DNA of 64,000 nt, from contig OX597818.1 in NCBI GenBank assembly GCA_951406725.2, positions 129,022,001 through 129,086,000 of the forward strand. The letters run 5' to 3'. Shown here one piece after another: positions 1-47,754 of this stretch. A program made the translations under genes and the position numbers. The DNA comes from Octopus vulgaris (Eukaryota). Position 1 is the first letter of the stretch. Every line of letters starts with the position of its first letter. The notes under the pieces are model-generated. The model ran no database searches and was not told the DNA's origin. It worked only from the letters and a program-made list of their open reading frames with translations.

Positions 1-291
1 GTTCGACCCACTAGAAATAGCAGCCAGGGCTCCAACCGCAAATAGTAGTAATTCCGAAATCAGAGGAAAAATTGAAAAAACATTTACCCTGTTTTTTCCT
101 CTGATTTTGGAATTACTACTATTTGCGGTTGGAGCCCTGGCTGCTATTTCTAGTGGGTCGAACGGCCTATTGTAGCCGTTCCTCAATTGTTGTTGAATTT
201 ATTAATAGTCTCTGACTATTTCCTCTTTCTCACTAGACCGCTGGTGGCAAAATAATTTCTATTGAATTTTTTGCTACCCTAAATTGATTAA
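1..291 (+). mobile_element. Fold-back Penelope-like (pLTR-type) fragment ending in (TA)n; truncated by window start
   Basis: 1-70 is the reverse complement of about 93-163 (gttcgacccactagaaatagcagcc... / ...ggctgctatttctagtgggtcgaac). Carries the GCTGCTATTTCTAG motif shared with other fold-back elements and runs into (TA)n at about 292. Confidence 0.55.
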
Positions 292-317
292 TATATATAT
301 ATATATATATATATACA

Positions 318-478
318 ATGGACTTCTTTCAGTTTCTGTCTACCAAATCCATTGACAAAGCCTTGGTCAGCCTGAGGCTATAGTAGAAGACGCTTGCCCA
401 AGATGTCACAGAGTGGGATTAAACCTGGAACCATGTGGGTGGGAAGTGAGCTTCTTACCACACAGCCATGCCTGCACC
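318..478 (-). mobile_element. SINE family A, 5' half
   Basis: Matches the repeated family A sequence (tttcagtttc..taccaaatccac..caaggc..tatagtagaagacacttgcccaagg..accacacagcc). Confidence 0.85.
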
Positions 479-914
479 TAATGGTTAGACTTATTTGTAT
501 ACCATGTATAGAAATACCATTTGTATACCATTTCTGACAATGACGATGACGACGACGATGATGATGATGATGATTATAAAGACCATGATCAGTGCTGCTT
601 AAGGCATCAAGGGAAGTGTGGGCACACAGTAATTGTAAATGGTTTATGGTACAAAAGAATTCACTTAAAACATGCTAAAATAAGCATTATTGAATGTGCC
701 TTTCCAAAGGCAGATATTATCTTTCATATATTCTTAATATATGACAAATTGCTCAGCTGAGCATTCATTTTCGCAGTTGAAGAATATTAAAAATACCATC
801 AGAACAACTATGCAACAAGGCAGGTTGGATGCCTTATCTCTACCAAGTATAGAAGCAGATGTGTTATGTAAGATTAATTTTGAGGATCAGATCAAAGACT
901 TTGCAATTAGAAGC

Positions 915-1172
915 ATCGCCTGGCCCCGTGCCAGTGACACGTAAAAGCACCATCCGTTCGTGGCCGTTTGCCAGCTCTGTCTGGCACCTGTGCAGGTGGC
1001 ACGTAAAAACACCCACTACACTCGCGGAGTGGTTGGCGTTAGGAAGGGCATCCAGCCGTAGAAACACTGCCAGATCTGACTGGGCCTGACGAAGCCTTCC
1101 AGCTTCACAGACCCCTGTTGACCCGTCCAACCCATGCTAGCATGGAAAGCGGACGCTAAATGATGATGATGA
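915..1172 (+). mobile_element. Short retroelement family D ((TGA)n tail, RTE-like 3' end)
   Basis: ggttggcgttaggaagggcatccagc..ccaacccatgctagcatggaaagcggacg..(tga)n. The same sequence recurs at 3472, 5748, 9037, 25640, 31165, 43220 and 52690. Confidence 0.8.
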
Positions 1173-1257
1173 AGAGAAAACTTTTCAAATATAAATAAAG
1201 CAGGAGTATATAAAACGAAAATACTATTTTCCATTGTACTGTTAGTTTGGCTTCATT

Positions 1258-1655
1258 TTACTCTTTACTCTTTTTACTCTTTTACTTGTTTCAGTCATTT
1301 GACTGCGGTCATGCTGGAGCACCACCTTTAGCCGAGCAAATCGATCCTAGGACTTATTCTTTGTAAGCCTATAAATTATTCTAGCGGTCATTTTTACTGA
1401 ACTGCTAAGTTATGGGGACGTAAACACACCAGCATCGGTTGTCAAGCCATGTTGGGGGGACAAACACACACACACACACACATACATATACATATATATG
1501 ATGGCCTTCTTTCAGTTTCCGTCTACCAAATCCACTCACAAGGCTTTGGTCGGCCCGAGGCTATAGTAGAAGACACTTGCCCAAGGTGCCATGCAGTGGG
1601 ACTGAACCTGGAACCATATGGTTGGTAAGCAAGCTACTTACCACACAGCCACTCT
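1258..1655 (-). mobile_element. SINE family A, full length
   Basis: tRNA-like head (ggctgtgtggtaag..ggttcagtccc on the minus strand), CCTTGGGCAAGT central box, internal (TA)/(CA) microsatellite, tail TGACTGAAACAAGTAAAAGAG with short repeats. Confidence 0.9.
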
Positions 1656-1874
1656 TGTACATATTTTGGACATAAAAAATTTATTTAATGGTTTATAATT
1701 GTTTATATTTTTGAATTACATATATATAAGGGGGTACAAAAATGTTTTAAGTGCTTAGGAGCCTCAATGGGTTTTGATCTGGCCCTGACTGTGATGGAGA
1801 GGTTGGTGGTGATGACAATGGTAATGAATACTGTTGAATGTGATAGCTGTGGCAGTGATAATCTTCTATCATTC

Positions 1875-2255
1875 ACTCCTTTTAGTCATTGGACTGTGGC
1901 CATGTTGGGGCACTGCCTTGAAAGATTTAGTAGACAAACAAACCCAGGCACTGAATGTTTGTCTAAGCCTAGTATTTGTTCTATTGACATCTTTTACTGA
2001 ACAGGTAAGTTATGGGAATGTAAACAAACAAAACCTCAGTCGTCAGGAGATGGTGGGGGTCAAGCACAAAGATACACATACACACACACACATATGTACA
2101 CACACACATACACACACACACACATGATGGGCTTCTTTCAGTTTCCATCTACCAGATCCACTAACAAGATTTTGTTCAGCCTGAGTCTAGAGTAGAAGAC
2201 ATTGGCTTGAGGTGGAACTGAACCTAGAACCATGTGGTTGAGAAGCAAGCTTCTT
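1875..2255 (-). mobile_element. SINE family A, head interrupted by a family B SINE
   Basis: Family A sequence stops at aagcttctta (about 2255) and resumes as cttaccacacagc at about 2669. Confidence 0.8.
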
Positions 2256-2669
2256 ATTTCTTTATTGCCCACAAGGAGCTAAACACAGAGGGGACAAACA
2301 AGGACAGACAAAGGGATTAAGTCGATTACATCGACCCCAGTGCGTAACTGGTACTTAATTTATCGACCCTGAAAAGATGAAAGGCAAAGTCGACCTCGGC
2401 AGAATTTGAACTCAGAATGTAATGGCAGACAAAATACCTATTTCTTTACTACCCACAAGGGGCTAAACACAGAGGGGATAAACAAGGACAGACACACGAA
2501 TTAAGTCGATTACATCGACCCCAGTGCGTAACTGGTACTTAATTTATCGACCCTGAAAAGATGAAAGGCAAAGTCGACCTTGGTGGAATTTGAACTCAGA
2601 ACGTAATGGCAGACAAAATACCGCTAAGCATTTTGCCCGGCGTGCTAACATTTCTGCCAGCTCGCCGCC
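2256..2669 (-). mobile_element. SINE family B, full copy plus tandem 3' duplicate
   Basis: Reverse complement of aaggcggcgagctggcagaa..gagttcaaattcc..gactttgcctttcatc..tgtgggtagtaaagaaata; about 185 bp of the 3' part is present twice. Confidence 0.9.
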
Positions 2670-3032
2670 TTACCACACAGCTTCTTACCTCACAGATATG
2701 TATAGGAGTGATAGTGATGTTACTGACAATGATGGTGATGATGACGATGGTAAAGATTTGTGTAGAATGTAGAGTTTGCTGTAATGATGATGATAATGAT
2801 GATGGTGATGGTGATGGTATTTTAAAGTAAAATATTTCTGATTTGACTTAAGCACAAGAAAAAAAAAGAAGAAAATACAAAAGAAACAAACATTTTTTTT
2901 AAGAAATAAAGTATTTTTTGCAGGTTTCCAGCAAGCAATAACTACATCTAGGATATACTTCAGTAGTTTATAGTAATGATTTTGAAAAACACTATGCATG
3001 TGTGTTTGTGTATATGTATACATATACATACA

Positions 3033-3068
<36 letters not shown>

Positions 3069-3471
3069 TATACATACACATACGCACACATATGCACACA
3101 CATACATATATACATATATGTATGATCATGTGCATGTATGTATGTTTAGAGAAAAATCAATATATATCAGCTCATAAAACCAATGGTCAGCAAAATATTT
3201 TTGTTTGATTTACATATCGCAAATGAAATAAAATATTGCATCTTAAATACACTAGAATAATTAATTATAAATGTGTATCTATGTATAGGCATGAAATTCA
3301 TCACTATTATCGCACAGTCACATGCTCACAACACCCTGGCTCATAAATATGGATGATTGGTTCTCTGTCATTTTCCAACAATGAGGATTCAGTTGTTTAA
3401 TCAACTAAATTACCTGTTCATTGAATTAGTGTAAGTGGTTGAGTATTCCACAGACCACATATCCTTAGTGT

Positions 3472-4131
3472 AGGCCAGCGCTGCCTCGACTGGCTTCTGT
3501 GCTGGTGGCACATAAAAAGCACCATCCGAACGTGGCCGATGCCAGCGCCGCCTCGACTGGCTTCTGTGCTGGTGGCACATACAAAGCACCATCCGAACGT
3601 GGCCGATGCCAGCGCCGCCTTGACTGGCTTCCGTGCCGGTGGCACGTTAAAAGCACCAACCGATTGTGGCCGATGCCAGACTCCCCTGGCACCTGTGCCG
3701 GTGGCACGCAAAAAGCACCCACTACACTTGCGGAGTGGTTGGCGTTAGGAAGGGCATCCAGCTGTAGAAACACTGCCAGATCAGACTGGAGCCTGGTGCA
3801 GCCCCTGGCTTCCCAGACCCCAGTCGAACCGTCCAACCCAGTGATTCCCAAGGTGGGGCGTACGCCCCACTGGTGGGGCCTGAGAAAATTCAGGTGGGGC
3901 GCGGGGCATAGACGTGGGCTGTGAAAATATTTGTACATGACGAGCGGTCATCGCGGGCACAACCTTAGATTTACATGTACTTGTAAATGTGAGTGGACAT
4001 GGGAAAAGGTGGGGCGTAAAAACTTTTGCTATGAAAAAGTGGGGCGCCGGGAAAAAAGGTTGGGAAACACTGGTCCAACCCATGCTAGCACGGAAAACGG
4101 ATGTTAAACGATGATGATGATGATGATGATG
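3472..4131 (+). mobile_element. Family D retroelement with internal ~68-bp tandem repeats; hosts a hAT MITE
   Basis: Three or more copies of gccagcgccgcctcgactggcttctgtgctggtggcac..gcaccatccgaacgtggccgat, then the family D body and (tga)n tail. Confidence 0.8.
3839..4072. mobile_element. Non-autonomous hAT MITE (234 bp)
   Basis: TIRs CAGTGATTCCCAA / TTGGGAAACACTG; perfect 8-bp TSD GTCCAACC at 3831-3838 and 4073-4080. Confidence 0.92.
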
Positions 4132-4486
4132 AATCTGTATGACGCAGTATTGTGTTGTATTGTGCAATCTACTTTATGGGATTCTATGCAGTTTCCACCT
4201 GCCCTATTTCACTCACAAGATATGAGTTGATCCAAGGTTGTAGAAAATGATGTCCATCAAAATTGCTACATAGTGAGATTGAACCTATGATCATTTGGTT
4301 GCAAGGTGAATTTCTTAACCTTTTGGCTACGCTGCACACCTATATACACACATACACACATATATGTAAATCATTAGATATCTAATGAGATGCATCACTA
4401 TTTTGTCTTCCTATGTTACTGGAAACAGAGTGTTCAATGTAATATGCATATCTAAATATATTTACATACATTTTGGGTAGGTCAAA

Positions 4487-4845
4487 TATGTCTCAAACAT
4501 ATTTGAACTGACCTGATAGTTTGTTCTTTTCACAATACTGCTTTGAATGCAGACCATGTATTTTGCTTAAGCCTTGCAACCATACAACACAATCAGCGGA
4601 TACTTTCTATTGATTCCTTATAAGGAAGTGAAAGCTTCCACTCATTTCGGAGTAGTCTTCCTTAGTATCTAATACTGATGAGGGCGTAAAGATCTTGAAA
4701 TCATATATTAGTCCATAGGAGATGCTCTGAAATGACTTTTAGTATTTTACCTCTTTCTCCTAAAGCAAGAATTTTCCTCCATGGCAGAGCACAATGAAAA
4801 TGGTCTTTTTACAGATTAACTATGTCCCAAATATATTTGAACTGA
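4487..4845 (+). mobile_element. ~334-bp unit with terminal direct repeat and degenerate hammerhead core (pLTR/retrozyme-like)
   Basis: tatgtc.caaa.atatttgaactga at 4487 and 4821. CTGATGA..GAAA..GTC at about 4675-4713 lies inside the stem tcatttcggagta / tgctctgaaatga. Confidence 0.45.
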
Positions 4846-6189: not shown

Positions 6190-6238
<49 letters not shown>

Positions 6239-6326
6239 TTAGAGACAAAACCACTATTATGCAAATCAAACAAAGAAAGACTTAATCCAATACATAAAAA
6301 ATTTTATATAAATTAAATAAAATCAA

Positions 6327-12594: not shown

Positions 12595-12667
12595 GGCCCT
12601 GTGGCCTAATGGATAAGGCGTCGGCCTCCGGAGCCGAAGATTGTGGGTTCAAGTCCCATCAGGGTTG
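12595..12667 (+). tRNA. tRNA-Arg (anticodon CCG), complete cloverleaf; probably a retrocopy
   Basis: Acceptor GGCCCTG/CAGGGTT, D-arm GCCT/AGGC, anticodon arm TCGGC-CTCCGGA-GCCGA, T-arm GTGGG-TTCAAGT-CCCAT, discriminator G; A and B boxes intact. Confidence 0.92.
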
Positions 12668-14579: not shown

Positions 14580-14783
14580 GCGTGGCTGTGTGGGCTTACC
14601 ACCAACCACATGGTTCCTAGTTCAGTCCCACTGCGTGGCACCTTGGGCAAGTGTCTTATACTATAGAAAGAAGCCTGTTGTGTGTGTATATTTATATATA
14701 TATATATATTATACTGTAAAATTAGATTTAATCATAAATCTAATTTTTCCCTGTAAGTTTGGATTTACTCCCTAATATTATTA

Positions 14784-14819
<36 letters not shown>

Positions 14820-28144: not shown

Positions 28145-28522
28145 ATTAATATAGACAGCTGTGTGCAATGTTTTACCGAACAGGAAAACTATAAATGTCA
28201 CAAAATATGACTAGGGTGTTAGAACACTTACATTGCTAGAAATAAGAGCTAAAAATCTCTAATGCTGTAGTTAAAGCACATAATTGTATACATATGTGCT
28301 GAGAGGGACTGGAATCGCCCAAAAGCACCGGTTGAGAGTTCCCTATACTGATCGGTCAGTTTTGGCTAATTCTGTAGCCTCATCAGTAGGGACTGGTGCT
28401 TTGGGGCAATTACACTCCTTGTCAGTGCACATGTATATAATTATGTGCTTTAACTATACCATTAGAGCTTTTTAGCTTTTATTTCTAGCAATGTAGGTGT
28501 TCTAACACTCTAATGACATTTA
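28145..28522 (-). mobile_element. Fold-back Penelope-like/retrozyme element with a hammerhead at its apex
   Basis: Arms 28212-28332 and 28392-28512 are imperfect inverted copies; flanked by TA-rich repeats. Confidence 0.7.
28341..28391 (-). ncRNA. Type I hammerhead ribozyme motif with G12A substitution
   Basis: Minus strand: CCCTA-CTGATGA-GGCTA cagaat TAGCC-AAAAC-TGA ccga TCA-GTA-TAGGG; all three stems pair. Confidence 0.75.
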
Positions 28523-37689: not shown

Positions 37690-40574
37690 CAGTAGTCTCC
37701 TGGTATTCGTGGGGTTTACATTCCTAGAGCACCCACAAATAGTGAAAAGCACAAATATTGGACATGGTCCATAAAAATGTCTATAAATGTCAAAATATAA
37801 CGTAATATATATATATATATATGATAAATTTGATATAAAAATAAAGTAAAATGTATGGTTACTCACCAATAATGAATGATATTGATTTAAGATGATGATG
37901 ATGATGATGAAAATAATGAAGGTAATGACTACATGGCAAAGGAGATTCAAAGCTCTTCAGGTGACACCTCTTCTTCAGGTGTTTTAGGGGTTGTCATATC
38001 TTTGTGCAAAGCTTTCTTGGTGGGTTTGAGGGGAAATGTGTTGGGAAGTTGTTGTCGTTTCTTCATGGTTGTTAGGAGAGTTTTGTATGTCTGCATGGCA
38101 CCACCAGTGGTATTTGGAGAGGCCGAATGATATAGGGATCCCATACTTTTGCCTTTCCTTGCAATTCCTTTGCTGTCCTTAAAAGGTTGGACAGATGTTC
38201 AATAGTCAGGCCCACCTCATCCTCCTCCTCTTCTTCTGGATCTGGTGCTTCCTCCTCCTCTTTGCTGACAGACTTAGTTAACTCCAACAAATCTTCATCT
38301 GTCAGGGTTTCAGAGTGGGCATCGATGAGGTCGTTGACCTCATCTTGTGTGATGTTGTCAAAGCATTTGCCACCAAGTACCTTTGCCAGTTTCACCTCAT
38401 TGTTGACAGCTTTGTGTTGAATATCTTCAGATGAGAAGCCCTTATAGTTCTGGACACACACTGGTCACACCTTCTTCCAGCATACAATTAGGGATTTTTA
38501 CTTCATGTCTTTAAGAGCAGTGTGGAAGACCAACAGGCACATTGCGATCATGAAGTTATGACAGTATTCCTTTAACCTGAAATTCTCATCTGAATCCATT
38601 GCACCCACAAGGTGTTGGAGAGAGTTCTGAGTGTAAAGTGCCTTGAAGGCATGTATCACACCTTGATCCATAGGGTGGATGAGGGAGGTGGTGTTGGCAG
38701 GGAAGAACTTGACTTGGACTCCATCATGATTCAAATCCAAAGAGTGACCACCAGCATTATCTATAACAAGTAACACCTTGAATTCCATGCACATATTTTG
38801 GAGGTATTCCTTGGCTTGAGGGATGAAGCATTGGTGGAACCAATTCAAAGTTAGACTTTTGGTAATTCAGGCCTTGGGGTTGTGCATCCAGTGGATAGGC
38901 AGAAGGTTTTTATTCTTACTTTTGAAGGTGCACGGGTTCACAGGCTTGTAGATAAGTCCTGGTTTCATCATGAAGCCAGCAGCAATGCTACACATAATTA
39001 CAATTTCCGCTCTTTCTTGTGAATGATGTTATCACTCAAGGGGATGTTTTTCTTCTTGCAGTCACTGATCCACAATGCCAAGGCAAATTCCATCCTGACC
39101 AAGTGTTTATTTCTTATTGTCACTATCTCTTTGGCACTTTCACAGAAACTTACTGCTACAGTGGTCGTGACTGCTATCTCATTATGTAATTACATAATTA
39201 CACATAATTGCTCTGTCCTTCTGTACCTCAAATCCTGGGGCTCTGGCTTCGTCCTTCATGATGTACCTTCTGGAAGGCATCTTCTTCCAGAACAATCCAG
39301 TCTCGTCCATATTGAAAACCTGCTCCAGCTTGTACCTCTTGTCCTTAAGGATCTGTCTGAAGGTGTCAAGGTACTTCATGGCAGCTTCTTTGTTGCCTGA
39401 TGTTGTTTCTCCATGCAGCGAAACATATTTTATTTTAAACCGTTTCTGGAAACAGTGAAACCAACCCTTGCTGGCTTGAAAATCTTTGGGCTCCGGTGCT
39501 GTCAATGGTTTTGATTGCAGTTCTTTGATGCCTTCTGCTCTGTCTCCTCCATCGAACTGCTGGTATAATTTCTGCTCTTTCTTGTGAATGATGTTACCAC
39601 TCAAGGGGATGTTTTTCCTCTTGCAGTCACTGATCCACAATGCCAAAGCAAATTCCATCCTGACCAAGTGTTTATTTCTCACTGTCATTATCATTTTGGC
39701 ACTTTCACAGAAACTTACTGCTACAGTAGTCCTGATTGCTATCTCATTCTTCTTTATGTAGTGCATGGTGCATTTGTTGATACCATAACAGCAACCTACT
39801 GCATCATAACTTTTACCTTCCTGGAGCATATCCAGCAATTGTACCTTCTCATGGAGCGTCACAACCTTTTTCAGGCACTTAGGTTCACTGCCAGAAGCTT
39901 TAGGTGTAGGGCGTTTGGGTGGCATCTTAGGGCTTTAATAACATGATGCGAAAAACACAACATTCAATAAAATACTGGACACAGTTTATCCCCACAAAAA
40001 ATGTACCAAAAAAATCTTCCTTGTGTCTAATATGCGCATACCACAAATAGGAGATTGAGCAGGGATTAAAAATAATCATGGTTTTGAAATATTTAGTTTG
40101 TATTACCACTAGATACAGTAATCTATGCTATAATAATAATAAGAGAGAGAGAGAAAGTGTGTGTGTTTGTGTGTGTGTGTTTATGTGTGTGTGTTTGTGT
40201 GTGTGTGAAATATACATAGATATTGTTATACTAATTAGCAAGCTTTGATTGAAAGCAGGAATAAGAGATACAAGATGCAAGATACAATGTACTTGTATCT
40301 AAAATAATCAAGCTACGTGATATAGGACTATTATAATCAGCGGGGGCTTCAACTGTGAAGGGGCGTCCAATAAACCAGCAAATACAGTATATCGTTATTA
40401 ATAATTTAGCCTTAAAATGCGTGAAAAAATATATATTGCCACGAATAATGTCATAAAAAATTGTGGATGATATTTATGATTCTGTGAATATGCAGTGGTT
40501 TCTCTGAACAATCATTCGTTCTGCAAATAACTGGGACTGTGAATGCCGAACCGCAAATAAGTTGGGGTACACTG
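37690..40574 (-). mobile_element. Tigger/pogo DNA transposon, near full length
   Basis: Imperfect TIRs CAGTAGTCTCCTGGTATTCGTGG / CCGCAAATAAGTTGGGGTACACTG; encloses a CENP-B-like transposase. Confidence 0.85.
37950..39925 (-). pseudogene. Tigger/pogo (CENP-B-like HTH + DDE_1) transposase, disrupted
   Basis: Motifs TLHEKVQLL, FQASKGWF..FQKR, QVFNMDETGLFWKKMPSR, LLVIDNAGGH, FFPANTTSLIHPMDQGVI; broken by stops, frameshifts and an internal duplication. Confidence 0.92.
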
Positions 40575-43471: not shown

Positions 43472-43603
43472 TATATATGTACATGCATATATATACACAC
43501 ACATACATATATATGCATATAAATATACACACACACACACATATATATATACATACATATATATATGTATATATGTATATATATTTATATATATATATAT
43601 ATT

Positions 43604-43931
43604 ATATTAAATTAGAGATAAAACCACTATTAGGCAAATCAAACAATGAAAAACTTAAGCCAATACATAAAATTAATTAATTTATATTATTTTAAATATA
43701 TATCAAAAGTATTAAAAGTTTAATAAAAGATAATACTTTTAATACTTTTGATATATATTTAAAATAATATAAATTAATTAATTTTATGTATTGGCTTAAG
43801 TTTTTCATTGTTTGATTTGCCTAATAGTGGTTTTATCTCTAATTTAATATAATATAATATTTTACTATAAAATTGGATTCAATCCTAAATCTGATCTTTC
43901 CCTGTAAGTTTGGATTTATTCCCTAATATTT

Positions 43932-43936
<5 letters not shown>
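43604..43936 (+). mobile_element. AT-rich fold-back Penelope-like fragment in (TA)n
   Basis: About 43604-43716 is the reverse complement of about 43739-43850; related fragments at 6235-6320 and 14710-14785. Confidence 0.65.
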
Positions 43937-43974
<38 letters not shown>

Positions 43975-44130
43975 CGTATTTTTGCCATTTCAATATGGCT
44001 AACCCTAGGGTGGATGCTACTGTAGTTTTTAGCCCCAGGTGGACACACTCTCCAGCTGGCCATAGACACACTATCTGTGTCCTGTCAGTATTTGCAAGGA
44101 AGTCATCCTTCCCGTCTTCAACTTATGATA

Positions 44131-44173
44131 CACACGGACTCGAGTTTCAAGGTATTGACCTCGTCAGCGTGTG
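44131..44173 (-). ncRNA. Hammerhead motif, antisense copy, stem II damaged
   Basis: Minus strand CACACG-CTGACGA-GGTcaatACC-TT-GAAAC-TCGA-GTC-CGTGTG; 2-nt loss relative to the sense copies. Confidence 0.65.
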
Positions 44174-44278
44174 ACAATCATAGTTGTCGCCGAGAATTAG
44201 ATTTCCTTCACAAATACTTATACTTTTTCCAGCGTCCACTGTCGCTGATATCTAATTCTCGGCGACAACTATGATTGT

Positions 44279-44323
44279 CACACACTGACGAGAGGTCAAT
44301 ACCTCGAAACTCGAGTCCGTGTG
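44279..44323 (+). ncRNA. Type I hammerhead ribozyme, copy 1 (predicted cleavage after 44317)
   Basis: CACACA-CTGACGA-GAGGT caat ACCTC-GAAAC-TCGA-GTC-CGTGTG; core intact; stem I closing pair is an A.C mismatch. Confidence 0.85.
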
Positions 44324-44630
44324 TATCATAAGTTGAAGACGGGAAGGATGACTTCCCTTTGCAAATACTGACAGGACACAGATAGTGTGTTATGGCCAGC
44401 TGGAGGAGTGTGTCCTCCTGGGGCTAAAAACTACAGTAGCATCCACCCTTAGGGGTTAGCCATATTGAAATGGCAAAAATACGTCACGATGTGTTACCGC
44501 TACTGTATATAACTCACTTTGATATTTATCATTGTTTGATTTCACTTTTTCAATATCAGCGACAGTGGACGCTGGAAAAAGTATAAGTATTTGTGAAGGA
44601 AATCTAATTCTCGGCGACAACTATGATTGT

Positions 44631-44675
44631 CACATGCTGACGAGAGGTCAATACCTCGAAACTCGAGTCCGTGTG
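44631..44675 (+). ncRNA. Type I hammerhead ribozyme, copy 2 (predicted cleavage after 44669)
   Basis: CACATG-CTGACGA-GAGGT caat ACCTC-GAAAC-TCGA-GTC-CGTGTG; all core residues and stems intact; palindromic stem III loop. Confidence 0.9.
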
Positions 44676-44883
44676 TATCATAAGTTGAAGACGGGAAGGA
44701 TGACTTCCCTTTGCAAATACTGACAGGACACAGATAGTGTGTCTATGGCCAGCTGGAGGAGTGTGTCCTCCTGGGGCTAAAAACTACAGTAGCATCCACC
44801 CTTAGGGGTTAGCCATATTGAAATGGCAAAAATACGTCACGATGTGTTACCGCTACTGTATATAACTCACTTTGATATTTATC

Positions 44884-44926
<43 letters not shown>

Positions 44927-45021
44927 CGGGAAGCTTTATGAAAATAAACAAAAGACAAAGGCAGGTGGAGTACAAACAAACAATTGTATTAGTATGGCGC
45001 TCAGGAATATAAATAAAACAA

Positions 45022-45060
45022 GTCTTTTACGTTTTGAGCCTACGCTCTTCAACAGAAAGA
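45022..45060 (-). ncRNA. Degenerate minimal hammerhead-like motif
   Basis: Minus strand TCTTT-CTGTTGA-A-GAGC gtag GCTC-AAAAC-GTA-AAAGA; two core deviations. Confidence 0.35.
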
Positions 45061-45355
45061 TACACAGAAAAGAAACACGGAGAGAAACAAGGAGAGAAAA
45101 GAAAATGCATGCAGAAGCTAGCGATTCAACATGGCGAACTATATATAAGAGGTAATGGTGACATTGAGACCCAAAGGTGTCAGGTAATGCAGAATAAGTG
45201 CTATAGACAGACCATAGTTAAGTTCCAGGTTCAGTAATTTTGCAAATAAGGGGTTCAACTTTGGTTCTATGTCAGTGTGTATATATAAGAAGTTTTTGCA
45301 TAATGAGATAAAAAAAACCAATGCTGTGTAGATATTAGAACATTTATAGATAAAA

Positions 45356-45410
45356 GGTCTTACAGCTGTTTCTAGGATACTTATTAATTATATCCATTCA
45401 TCAGAGATGG
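45356..45410 (-). ncRNA. Minimal hammerhead motif
   Basis: Minus strand TCT-CTGATGA-at GGATAT..GTATCC ta-GAAAC-AGCT-GTA-AGA; core intact, palindromic AGCT loop, weak stem I and mismatched base of stem II. Confidence 0.6.
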
Positions 45411-45883
45411 TGTGAGAGGATGGTTAAGTCATAGTTAGTTTAGATGTCATACAAAATAGAGAGTGAGGTGGAGGAAAAAAAATAGATGCAAGACATGTAT
45501 GGGTATTGAAGTTGTAGATCCCTTTTTTAGGCATAATGGTATATATGTAAGATTAAAATACCTTATGAGTGAAGTTCAACAGAGTTTAAAATGGGTCCTT
45601 CCAAATATAGAGTTTATACACAATGTAAGAGTAAACACCATTATTAAATACACACACACATACACATGCACACATATACACATACATACATACAACATCA
45701 GCCAGATAGATTCGTTATTTTTTTCTCTTTACCTGTGTGAGTTGTTGAGTATTGCTGTCTGGGAGATACCCTAGAGTAATAGAGTAGTAGTTTAACTGCT
45801 ATTTCTAAATTTCGGTATGTGGTGAAGCTAATTTTGCTGAACCCTAATTATAATTATACTCATAATTATAGAATTTTTGTGCG

Positions 45884-45923
<40 letters not shown>

Positions 45924-45927
45924 TACA

Positions 45928-45966
<39 letters not shown>

Positions 45967-46092
45967 TTCAGCAAAATTTAGATTCAAATGAATATGCTAC
46001 TTAAGTTAGATGCACCAGAATTTTGTATGGTGTTATCCATATAAATCCATGGGGTGATTATAATAAAAAATAAGCAACAAGAATAACTTCGG

Positions 46093-46184
46093 TAATTTGT
46101 ATGATCGTTTCACACTACATCATTTTATTAAATATTGTAAGTATTACAACAGTTTTAAAATGTTGAGCACTCATCAGCCATTAA
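46093..46184 (-). ncRNA. Degenerate hammerhead motif with long stem II
   Basis: Minus strand TAATGG-CTGATGA-GTGCT..(long hairpin)..AGTGT-GAAAC-GATC-ATA-CAAATTA. Confidence 0.5.
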
Positions 46185-46294
46185 TAGAGAATTTCCATTA
46201 ATACATAATTTGCATATCAATTGAAAACATTATAGAGAAGGTAGATATATAGACAAAGATGTCAATTCAAATTTTAAGAACATTAAGGTAGTAG

Positions 46295-46376
<82 letters not shown>

Positions 46377-46940
46377 ATATATATATTATATATATATATA
46401 TACACAAGAAGACAAGAAAATGGAGATAAGGAAGTTAATAATTTGTTAATAATAAACAATTACTAAGTTCCTTATCTCCATTTTCCTTTCTTTTAAATGG
46501 ATATATACTATAGGCTTTATATACACCTATGGTTTTAAGGGTATTTCATTCTCCCCAAATCACTAGGTATTGAACCAGTATTTCTTTGGATGCAACCATC
46601 CCTTCATGAGATTAACATATCCTCTAATTAAATTCATATATATGTATATATATATATACATATAAGTGAGGAAAAAATGCACTTGTATATCTGTTAATAG
46701 AGTGGGTATATTATCCAAAGTGTACAGTATCATGTATTCATTATGGCTGATCTTACCACTTGGTTTCGAACTGTTATGGAATGAAATATGGTGAGAGCAG
46801 TCACCATATTTCATAACAGTTACCTCTGTTGAGCACAAGGTTACATAATCAGATGGTTACCTAACACTCCATTGAATCCCTAGCATGAAACAGATTGGTA
46901 AGACTGGCTGCAATGGATAAATAATACTGTACACTTTGAA

Positions 46941-47001
<61 letters not shown>

Positions 47002-47027
47002 CTTAATCATATCAAAGGGAAAAGGTG

Positions 47028-47107
47028 TTCCTGCTGAGGATGATTTCACCTAGCGAGTATGTTATTTTACTTGCTAAACTAAAATCAGAAACCAATTGGT
47101 CCAGGAA
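47028..47107 (+). ncRNA. Type I hammerhead ribozyme (predicted cleavage after 47101)
   Basis: TTCCTG-CTGAGGA-TGATTT cacc TAGCGAGTA..TACTTGCTA..AAATCA-GAAAC-C AATT G-GTC-CAGGAA; all stems pair. Confidence 0.85.
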
Positions 47108-47754
47108 ACTAGATGGTAAAATGCTTTTATTTTTTCATTTCGTTCCTGTTGAATTTTATCCCTAATTTTGTGATTATAGAACCTAGCTGTTCTTTCTAGC
47201 ATGTTGAATCCCACAAGTGGATTCCTTATGTGTTTAAATGTACACTGTATTTTATATATATATGTGTGTGTGTGTGTATGTATATATGTATGTATGTATC
47301 TATATCTATCTATCTATCTATCTATCTATATATATATATCTTTAAAGAATTTACTTTACAATTAATATAACTCCATGTTGAGCCTCACTGTGTGGAATCT
47401 TGGGCAAACATCTTTGATAACAGCTTTAGGTTGATCTATATGCATATTTAGGAATTTGAAACAAACATTTCTTAGTCACTTGTGAAATCTAAAGCCCCAG
47501 AGTAAACAATATTCTTGATTTTTGCCCTGTTGTGCTGTGATAAAGGGGAAAACTAGGTCTCAAATATTTGAAGTATTGAGATGAAGCTAATCCTGAAAAA
47601 AAGAGATGGTGGTGGTGGTGGTAGTGAAGAAGATGATAATGGTAGTGGTACAGATGGATGATGATGATGGTAGTGGATGATGATGGATGATGGTGGCAGT
47701 AGTACATTATGATGATGATGATGATGATGATGATGGTAATGAGAGTGATGACAC

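What the first reader, a model, noticed from the sequence alone, without database searches (positions are those of the whole stretch)
43604..47260. A 3.7-kb nest of eight or more different hammerhead/fold-back elements separated by (TA)n spacers
Seen: successive, mostly unrelated units (43604-43936, 43971-44886, 44925-45145, about 45150-45650, about 45700-45880, about 45963-46300, about 46405-46640, about 46660-46945, about 47002-47255), most bounded by (TA)n. Hammerhead cores occur at 44131(-), 44279(+), 44631(+), 45022(-), 45356(-), 46093(-) and 47028(+), with palindromic stem III centres (TCGA, ACGT, AGCT, GATC, AATT). Inference: many distinct microsatellite-targeting Penelope-like families repeatedly hit one (TA)n locus, each insertion leaving TA target on both sides. 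The result is a ribozyme cluster on both strands that could cut any transcript crossing it.
Basis: partly seen in the sequence, partly recalled or inferred. Interest (0 to 1): 0.78.

Follow-up and report, generated by a model that had tools for sequence, protein, structure and literature searches.

The report
Nine ribozyme retrotransposons piled in microsatellite
Pieces of nine unrelated, many-copy retrotransposon families that carry hammerhead ribozyme motifs lie side by side between TA repeats, likely because each inserted in turn into the same TA run; most of the ribozyme motifs here are broken or cut off, so this is likely a passive pile-up and not an RNA-cutting device.

Summary
Real, and mostly known biology. 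The 3.7 kb holds nine units, each a dispersed multi-copy family (98-4612 first-look candidates) with a type I hammerhead in family copies, a fixed 3' end at (TA)n, 5' truncation and often an inverted arm: hallmarks of Penelope-like elements (PLEs). C and F are 3' ends of GIY-YIG-coding PLEs; B, E and I are ORF-less tandem monomers (retrozyme type). Divergence from family consensus runs from 0.3% to 16.5%, and the C|D junction was found only here, so the units likely arrived one by one. Different families also sit side by side genome-wide (28 vs 4.3 expected); nine in a row is the upper tail. The 'ribozyme trap' reading fails: of eight motifs only two pass a strict descriptor, both on +, and one is predicted to be buried by an inverted arm. 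Best side result: in 27 of 27 two-armed B insertions one arm ends at a short site and the other 43-46 nt further, pointing to paired use of the two known PLE reverse-transcription start sites. No RNA evidence was obtained.

The parts
43598..43934 (+). Unit A: 3' end of an HHR-bearing family with an inverted arm (127-nt arms, 98%); the family's hammerhead lies upstream and is absent here; short end on the left arm, long end on the right
   Evidence: HHR seen in L123, L124, L132
43971..44886 (+). Unit B: very young 353-nt tandem monomer (retrozyme type): inverted arm 43971-44251 ending at monomer position 309, then positions 65-352 and 1-352 on +
   Evidence: 0.3% from consensus
44131..44175 (-). 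B hammerhead in the inverted arm; stem II broken by a 2-nt loss and a substitution
44279..44323 (+). B hammerhead, core intact, A.C mismatch at the first stem I pair
   Evidence: Hammerhead_1, 29.5 bits, E 2.7e-4
44631..44675 (+). B hammerhead, intact (6-bp stem I, 5-bp stem II, 2-bp stem III with TCGA loop); predicted to be buried by the inverted arm in a read-through RNA
44926..45140 (-). Unit C: 3' end of a PLE; family collinear with a GIY-YIG frame in L035/L290 and L291; minimal hammerhead 45022-45060 with G12>A here
45141..45630 (-). Unit D: 3' end of an HHR family with a long pyrimidine-rich upstream part in other copies (no ORF seen); hammerhead 45356-45408, core kept, stem II closed by a mismatch as in the family, stem I 3 bp
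45700..45880 (+). Unit E: piece of a 525-560-nt tandem monomer family; begins 3' of the family's hammerhead
45963..46298 (-). Unit F: 3' end of a PLE; about 1 kb of shared UTR and an endonuclease-like frame upstream in L087 and L100; hammerhead 46093-46182 with G16.2>A here
46405..46636 (+). Unit G: 3' end with short inverted arm; family hammerhead (long stem II) lies upstream and is absent here
46661..46943 (+).
47003..47255 (+). Unit I: piece of a 460-485-nt tandem monomer family with a 23-nt inverted arm; intact hammerhead 47028-47106 whose minimum-energy fold is the three-way junction
43541..47262 (.). Eight (TA)n tracts between and around the units (43541-43601, 43935-70, 44886-925, 45884-964, 46299-402, 46645-58, 46943-47000, 47253-62): likely remains of the repeatedly split target

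Best explanation
This is a row of nine fragments from unrelated hammerhead-carrying Penelope-like and retrozyme-type families that likely inserted one after another into the same (TA)n microsatellite and have since decayed. Inferred mechanism: a PLE RT/GIY-YIG protein nicks (TA)n and primes reverse transcription at fixed internal sites of the element RNA; copying stops early (5' truncation) or the second target strand is primed too and the two cDNAs join head to head (inverted arms). Each event splits a TA tract in two and leaves fresh target on both sides, so rows grow without units interrupting one another. The hammerheads are part of the donors' RNA (likely for processing tandem precursors) and are passengers here. 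Shown: family anatomy, TA-bound ends, ages, local state of the motifs, genome-wide clustering. Inferred: the priming steps, the order of arrival, the lack of local function.
For: Nine of nine units multi-copy. Hammerhead in copies of all nine families; core kept in 19/19 B, 18/19 C, 15/19 D, 15/19 F, 13/19 I, 10/19 H, 4/11 E, 3/12 G copies. 62 of 63 B arm ends run into (TA)n; 39 of 67 family pieces in the unbiased 1.2 Mb touch a TA run vs 7.8 by random placement. C and F are collinear with endonuclease frames. Divergence 0.3-16.5%. Only 1 of 40 scored candidates (706 at first look), the window itself, spans the C|D junction. Other-family pieces within 300 nt of 151 focal copies: 28 vs 4.3 expected, and 12 vs 1.9 with 12 hammerhead families taken from the random sample. 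A young RT/GIY-YIG family with many 784-aa open frames is in the genome. Literature agrees on TA bias, inverted arms, tails and weak dimer-type ribozymes.
Against: No empty-site allele or outgroup orthologue was seen, so serial arrival rests on ages and junction uniqueness. No ORF link for A, B, D, E, G, H, I; B has no sequence likeness to the young autonomous PLE. Nine in a row exceeds everything in 120 random stretches (maximum 4), so plain TA targeting may not explain the full length; the unbiased library-free test gave only 4 vs a maximum of 3 and has low power. Two joints (C|D, D|E) carry little or no (TA)n. Ages use consensuses from the best hits to the window's own copies.
Confidence: 0.8

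Rival explanations
1. Same serial insertion, but this locus is a special hot spot: PLE endonucleases prefer TA runs next to an existing PLE end, or the locus is a germline-open region or small-RNA trap that keeps insertions.
For: Nine families vs at most 4 in 120 random stretches although TA tract number is ordinary; the other 60 kb of the window hold only 3 library hits. Frangieh 2024 proposes nicking in the element's own pLTR as one route.
Against: The library was built from this nest, which inflates the contrast; clustering within 300 nt is genome-wide and expected from shared TA tracts; no small-RNA data.
Confidence: 0.11
2. The row is kept by selection as a ribozyme cluster that cuts transcripts on both strands.
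For: Two strict motifs in 3.66 kb against 12.5 per Mb; unit I folds as a three-way junction on its own.
Against: No minus-strand motif passes the strict descriptor; 4 of 8 motifs carry core or stem breaks that most family copies lack; 3 of 9 units lack the motif. B 44631 is predicted to be buried. PLE hammerheads are weak, dimer- or protein-dependent in vitro. No host exon recognised in the window.
Confidence: 0.04
3. The row is one composite element, or a segmental duplication, that moved as a block.
For: B and C are also neighbours in L004, L012, L031, L032.
Against: In L004 the join uses B's other end, and C is the commonest family (27 of 67 pieces); ages differ about 50-fold; units face both ways; the C|D junction was found only here.
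Confidence: 0.02
4. The row is an assembly artefact: unrelated repeat pieces joined through TA tracts.
For: Most joints are low-complexity; public contigs could not bridge them.
Against: C|D has only a 7-8 nt AT run; all five two-armed units keep the short-end/long-end pairing typical of single insertions; two- to four-family rows occur elsewhere.
Confidence: 0.03

Closest known systems
Endonuclease-positive Penelope-like elements (Penelope/Poseidon, Neptune, Nematis, Hydra) and their pLTR fragments; PMC8557442, PMC4209133, PMC3846280, PMC11167929
   Same: 5' truncation, partial tandems, head-to-head inverted arm, a tail at one end, type I hammerhead with palindromic helix III and an extra base after A9, AT-rich or (TA)n targets, RT plus C-terminal GIY-YIG in linked copies.
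   Different: No ORF in the window; tails of about 43-140 nt against the 30-40 nt described; strict one-short/one-long pairing of arm ends counted here; nine families in one row.
Non-LTR retrozymes of animals; PMC7229834, bioRxiv 10.64898/2026.07.22.740005
   Same: B is an ORF-less 353-nt tandem monomer with one type I hammerhead per unit and a strongly folded circle (z -6.9); E and I are tandem too.
   Different: B inserts with PLE-type inverted arms, two fixed ends and strict (TA)n targeting; E and I monomers are longer (460-560 nt); circular RNA and cleavage not shown here.
SaTar arrays of guayule and rice (microsatellite-targeted non-autonomous MULEs); PMC5907723
   Same: Linear rows of unrelated elements linked by microsatellite, none interrupting another.
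   Different: SaTars are DNA transposons of plants; these are retroelements with ribozymes, truncated 5' ends and head-to-head arms in an animal.
Naiad PLEs; PMC8557442
   Same: (TA)n targeting, tandem and inverted insertions, high copy number in invertebrates.
   Different: Naiads lack canonical hammerheads and carry an N-terminal endonuclease; all nine families here have a hammerhead and the linked endonucleases are C-terminal.

Membership tests
EN+ Penelope-like element | RT plus C-terminal GIY-YIG frame collinear with the unit | tested here: inconclusive
   Met for C (L035/L290, L291; tblastn E 6e-9 to a piece with Pfam GIY-YIG at 21.9 bits, cut-off 22.6) and by eye for F (L087, L100, L287; motifs recalled; the L287 piece has no Pfam hit). 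Not seen for A, B, D, E, G, H, I within the flanks fetched.
EN+ Penelope-like element | Type I hammerhead in the terminal repeat | tested here: met
   9 of 9 families (A from three loci only)
EN+ Penelope-like element | 5' truncation with fixed 3' end; inverted 5'-truncated arm | tested here: met
   two-armed copies in 8 of 9 families, none found for C
EN+ Penelope-like element | Optional tail: two alternative 3' ends | tested here: met
   Two end clusters in A, B, D, E, F, G, H, I; one in C
EN+ Penelope-like element | Insertion bias for (TA)n or AT-rich DNA | tested here: met
   62 of 63 B ends; 39 of 67 vs 7.8
EN+ Penelope-like element | Target-site duplication | not testable with these tools
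   Cannot be read inside (TA)n; same caveat in PMC8557442
EN+ Penelope-like element | Clade (Neptune, Nematis, Poseidon) by RT tree | not tested
   Only a Cys cluster before the GIY-YIG motif was noted; 'Neptune-type' rests on that and on PMC8557442
Non-LTR retrozyme | ORF-less head-to-tail monomers of a few hundred nt, one type I hammerhead each | tested here: met
   B period 353 in 19 of 19 loci listed; E 524-562 in 4 of 14; I 459-485 in 4 of 19; not seen for A, F, G
Non-LTR retrozyme | Self-cleavage and monomeric circular RNA | not testable with these tools
   Only contigs were available; no listed holder on record as RNA
Naiad | No canonical hammerhead; N-terminal endonuclease | tested here: not met
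   Hammerheads present; linked endonuclease pieces end the frame just before the UTR
SaTar (MULE) array | Members are non-autonomous Mutator-like DNA transposons | tested here: not met
   Arms are 5'-truncated copies of variable length with unequal ends, tandem monomers and RT-type links; works like it only in layout

The most novel reading that the evidence does not exclude
A two-armed PLE or retrozyme insertion is one concerted event in which the two known reverse-transcription start sites are used in a strict pair, one per target strand (as a dimeric RT would do on one RNA); the short site is the default. Animal retrozymes such as B are then inserted by ordinary PLE target priming in trans, and self-renewing (TA)n targets build long non-nested rows of ribozyme-bearing families, an animal retroelement counterpart of plant SaTar arrays. 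Family B, with thousands of near-identical copies, would be a ready substrate to test it.
Probability: 0.5. Interest if true: 0.55.

Novelty: new member of a known kind. Interest (0 to 1): 0.33.

Why it matters
The nest itself is an extreme case of a known habit, useful as a one-locus catalogue of nine undescribed-looking hammerhead families and as a sign that this genome holds very many such motifs (15 strict hits in 1.2 Mb, about 35,000 if extrapolated). The sharper value is mechanistic: how PLEs make tails and inverted arms is still open; in vitro work found two start sites with no difference between strands (PMC11167929), while the genomic record of family B shows them paired 27 of 27 times. 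That is a direct prediction for the existing in vitro assay and bears on how retrozymes are mobilised.

Tried and rejected
Rfam at gathering score finds no ribozyme in the window; its microRNA hits are microsatellite noise. RNA evidence: no RNA holder listed; contigs of four runs laid on units C-E covered the families in all four but bridged no junction; nothing on B's RNA was obtained. Host gene: 82 unmasked frames were listed; 10 were scanned with Pfam, only a pogo/Tigger-like transposase hit; two frames gave no PDB match; 72 were not scanned, so intron or intergenic is undecided. Autonomous partner of B: no likeness between B and two young autonomous copies; flanking loci of the protein search were not obtained. 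Library-free chain test: the first version (10 vs 3) was biased because its database held loci picked with the nest's own units and is not used; the fair version gave 4 vs 3. TA tract density does not single out the nest. MITE or foldback DNA transposon reading of A, G, H rejected: arms vary in length and end at different sites. No earlier findings of this scan were returned.
Full report
SETTING. The window is G000:C5:129022001-129086000 of a 2.8-Gb genome in 227 contigs, rich in microsatellites. Its repeats recall octopod genomes (recalled, not tested). I read 42.5-48.5 kb and split the finding into nine units, A to I (see parts).

OBSERVATION. A first descriptor (stem I 4 of 6 pairs) found 44285(+), 44637(+), 47034(+) in the nest and one site at 4675. 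A stricter one (unbroken stem I of 4 or more, stem II of 4 or more, paired 15.2/16.2) found only 44637 and 47034 in the whole window, 0 in 500 local shuffles of the nest, 15 in 120 systematically spaced 10-kb stretches and 0 in 5 shuffles of those (two of the 15 are second arms of one insertion and one looks like AT-rich chance). Rfam gives Hammerhead_1 at 29.5 bits for the two B motifs, below gathering. The 127-nt arms of A and the tandem-plus-inverted layout of B are confirmed.

THE UNITS ARE NINE FAMILIES. First-look candidates (lower bounds; 40 scored each): A 98, B 2650, C 1774, D 4612, E 1515, F 3297, G 1649, H 2097, I 1643. In 14-19 fetched copies per family one end is fixed and mostly runs into (TA)n while the other varies. 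Alignments show a type I hammerhead in eight consensuses and in three A loci. Core plus the 16.2 pair is kept in 19/19 B, 18/19 C, 15/19 D, 4/11 E, 15/19 F, 3/12 G, 10/19 H, 13/19 I copies. C and D have non-canonical features as families (A6>U with an extra A; a mismatch closing stem II). B repeats with period 353, E 524-562, I 459-485. C lies downstream of a GIY-YIG frame in two loci; F shares 1.4 kb upstream between L087 and L100 that includes an endonuclease-like frame (identified by recalled motifs). For A, D, G, H no ORF and no tandem monomer was seen.

STATE OF THE RIBOZYMES HERE. Intact: B 44631(+), I 47028(+). Near-intact: B 44279(+). Family-like but non-canonical: D(-). Broken: B(-), C(-) G12>A, F(-) G16.2>A, H(+) A6>U with stem III loss. 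Absent: A, E, G. Of eight motifs folded alone only I gives the three-way junction. In a + read-through RNA the inverted arm is predicted to pair with 44631 (0.93), and that motif's active monomer fold is -7.6 against -14.0 kcal/mol free. Cervera and de la Pena report no cleavage for a single minimal motif and low cleavage for dimers (PMC4209133, parts 1-2 of 4 read); Frangieh et al. found a PLE hammerhead that needs the protein and is dispensable for insertion in vitro (PMC11167929, parts 1-2 of 4 and passages). A both-strand trap is therefore unlikely.

SERIAL ARRIVAL. Window copies differ from their consensus by B 0.3, A 1.5, C 2.4, I 3.1, F 3.6, E 5.4, D 7.2, G 7.3, H 16.5% (consensus from best hits, H rough). 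Units face both ways. Only the window spans the C|D junction among 40 scored of 706 candidates. No empty-site allele was seen; contigs of four public runs did not bridge junctions.

HOW UNUSUAL. The nine families give 67 pieces in the unbiased 1.2 Mb, 39 touching a TA run against 7.8 (max 14) for random placement. Around 151 focal copies (5 overlapping loci dropped) other families lie within 300 nt 28 times against 4.3 expected; with 12 hammerhead seeds taken from the random sample, 12 against 1.9. Rows of two are common (48 of 151), three occur (6 of 151). The most families in 3.66 kb of any random stretch was 4 against 9 here, but nine of the 21 library entries came from this nest. A fair library-free test gave 4 against 3 (126 stretches, low power). 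TA tract number is ordinary (14 of 120 reach 8). So the nest is the upper tail of a genome-wide habit; how far out is not settled.

THE PAIRED ENDS. I classified 36 of the 40 scored B loci. All 27 two-armed ones, the window included, have one arm ending near monomer position 309 (300-309) and the other at 351-355; none is short/short or long/long. One-armed: 7 short, 1 long, 1 other. Two loci (L013, L305) share an inner junction and may not be independent. The 4 loci not fetched read as two short+long, one short plus an end at 329, one unreadable. Selection favoured full monomers, which should favour long ends, yet long/long is absent. Older families show two end clusters with tails of about 64 (H), 78 (A), 80-95 (I), 95 (F), 98 (E), 105 (G), 138 (D) nt. 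Their pairs were short+long in A 4/4, F 3/3, D 2/6 (4 unresolved), E 7/9 (2 unresolved), H about 15/17 (picked with a two-armed query), G 7/10 (2 apparent short/short), I 2/5 (1 short/short). The tail on one of the inverted repeats is described (PMC3846280, passages; PMC8557442, passages) and explained by two RT start sites, with no strand difference in vitro and a predicted dimer. I found no count of strict pairing in the text I saw; that paper's supplementary figure S2, which I did not view, may bear on it. Inference: both target strands are primed in one event at the two sites.

WHO MOVES B. In L002 a B array is fused head to head, without TA, to the 3' part of an RT/GIY-YIG element that is 97.6% like a copy with a 784-aa open frame. 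That family is young: all 150 scored endonuclease matches are 95-100% identical and many have frames over 700 aa; RVT_1 E 4e-8. One chimera suggests, and does not prove, mobilisation in trans; B shares no sequence with it.

COMPARISON. Everything fits EN+ PLE 3' ends and non-LTR retrozymes (PMC7229834, passages; bioRxiv 10.64898/2026.07.22.740005, part 1 of 5 and passages, supplements closed). Non-nested rows of unrelated microsatellite-targeted elements are described for plant MULEs (PMC5907723, abstract). A recent octopus repeat annotation lists 31 active Penelope-like families and does not use the word ribozyme (PMC13282606, passages); whether it concerns this organism is not established. 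Searches listed no paper on multi-family PLE rows in (TA)n (listings only; the library lacks most subscription papers, and Repbase was not seen).

VERDICT. Observation confirmed; transposon reading supported; ribozyme-trap reading not supported. New member of a known kind, interest 0.33, with one testable mechanistic lead.

Noticed in passing
L001-L020, L301-L320 (family B): 27 of 27 two-armed insertions pair a short end (about 309) with a long end (351-355); one-armed ones mostly use the short end.
   Followed up: yes
L002:234-1909: B array fused head to head, with no TA between, to the 3' part of a young RT/GIY-YIG PLE: possible template switch in one insertion.
   Followed up: partly
L289, L321, L322: Young autonomous PLE family (unit 4386 nt, tandem copies 99.95% alike in L321) with two overlapping frames (446 and 784 aa) and a U3-A8 hammerhead variant in its terminal repeat.
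   Followed up: partly
window 43971-44251: B's inverted arm differs from the forward copy by 5 substitutions and 7 gap bases in 291 nt, while the forward monomer is 0.3% from consensus.
   Followed up: no
family H loci L102-L120: The long end of H mostly abuts (CA)n/(TG)n while the short end abuts (TA)n.
   Followed up: partly
window 4667-4728: Another hammerhead-like motif on + (6-bp stem I, 3-bp stem II) outside the nest.
   Followed up: no
window 6217-6326, 14696-14785, 28197-28292: Two older relatives of family A and one piece of another hammerhead family elsewhere in the window.
   Followed up: no
window 38075-39934: Decayed pogo/Tigger-like DNA transposon on - (HTH_Tnp_Tc5 and DDE_1) with an internal duplication.
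   Followed up: partly
window 12595-12667: tRNA match, 65 bits.
   Followed up: no
L290:1918-3564: 549-aa RT-plus-endonuclease-like frame of another PLE type next to a C-linked element in the opposite sense; no Pfam hit.
   Followed up: no
window 43801-43818 and 44525-44542: A and B share an 18-nt stretch (94%) near their end sites; chance or a common cis motif.
   Followed up: no
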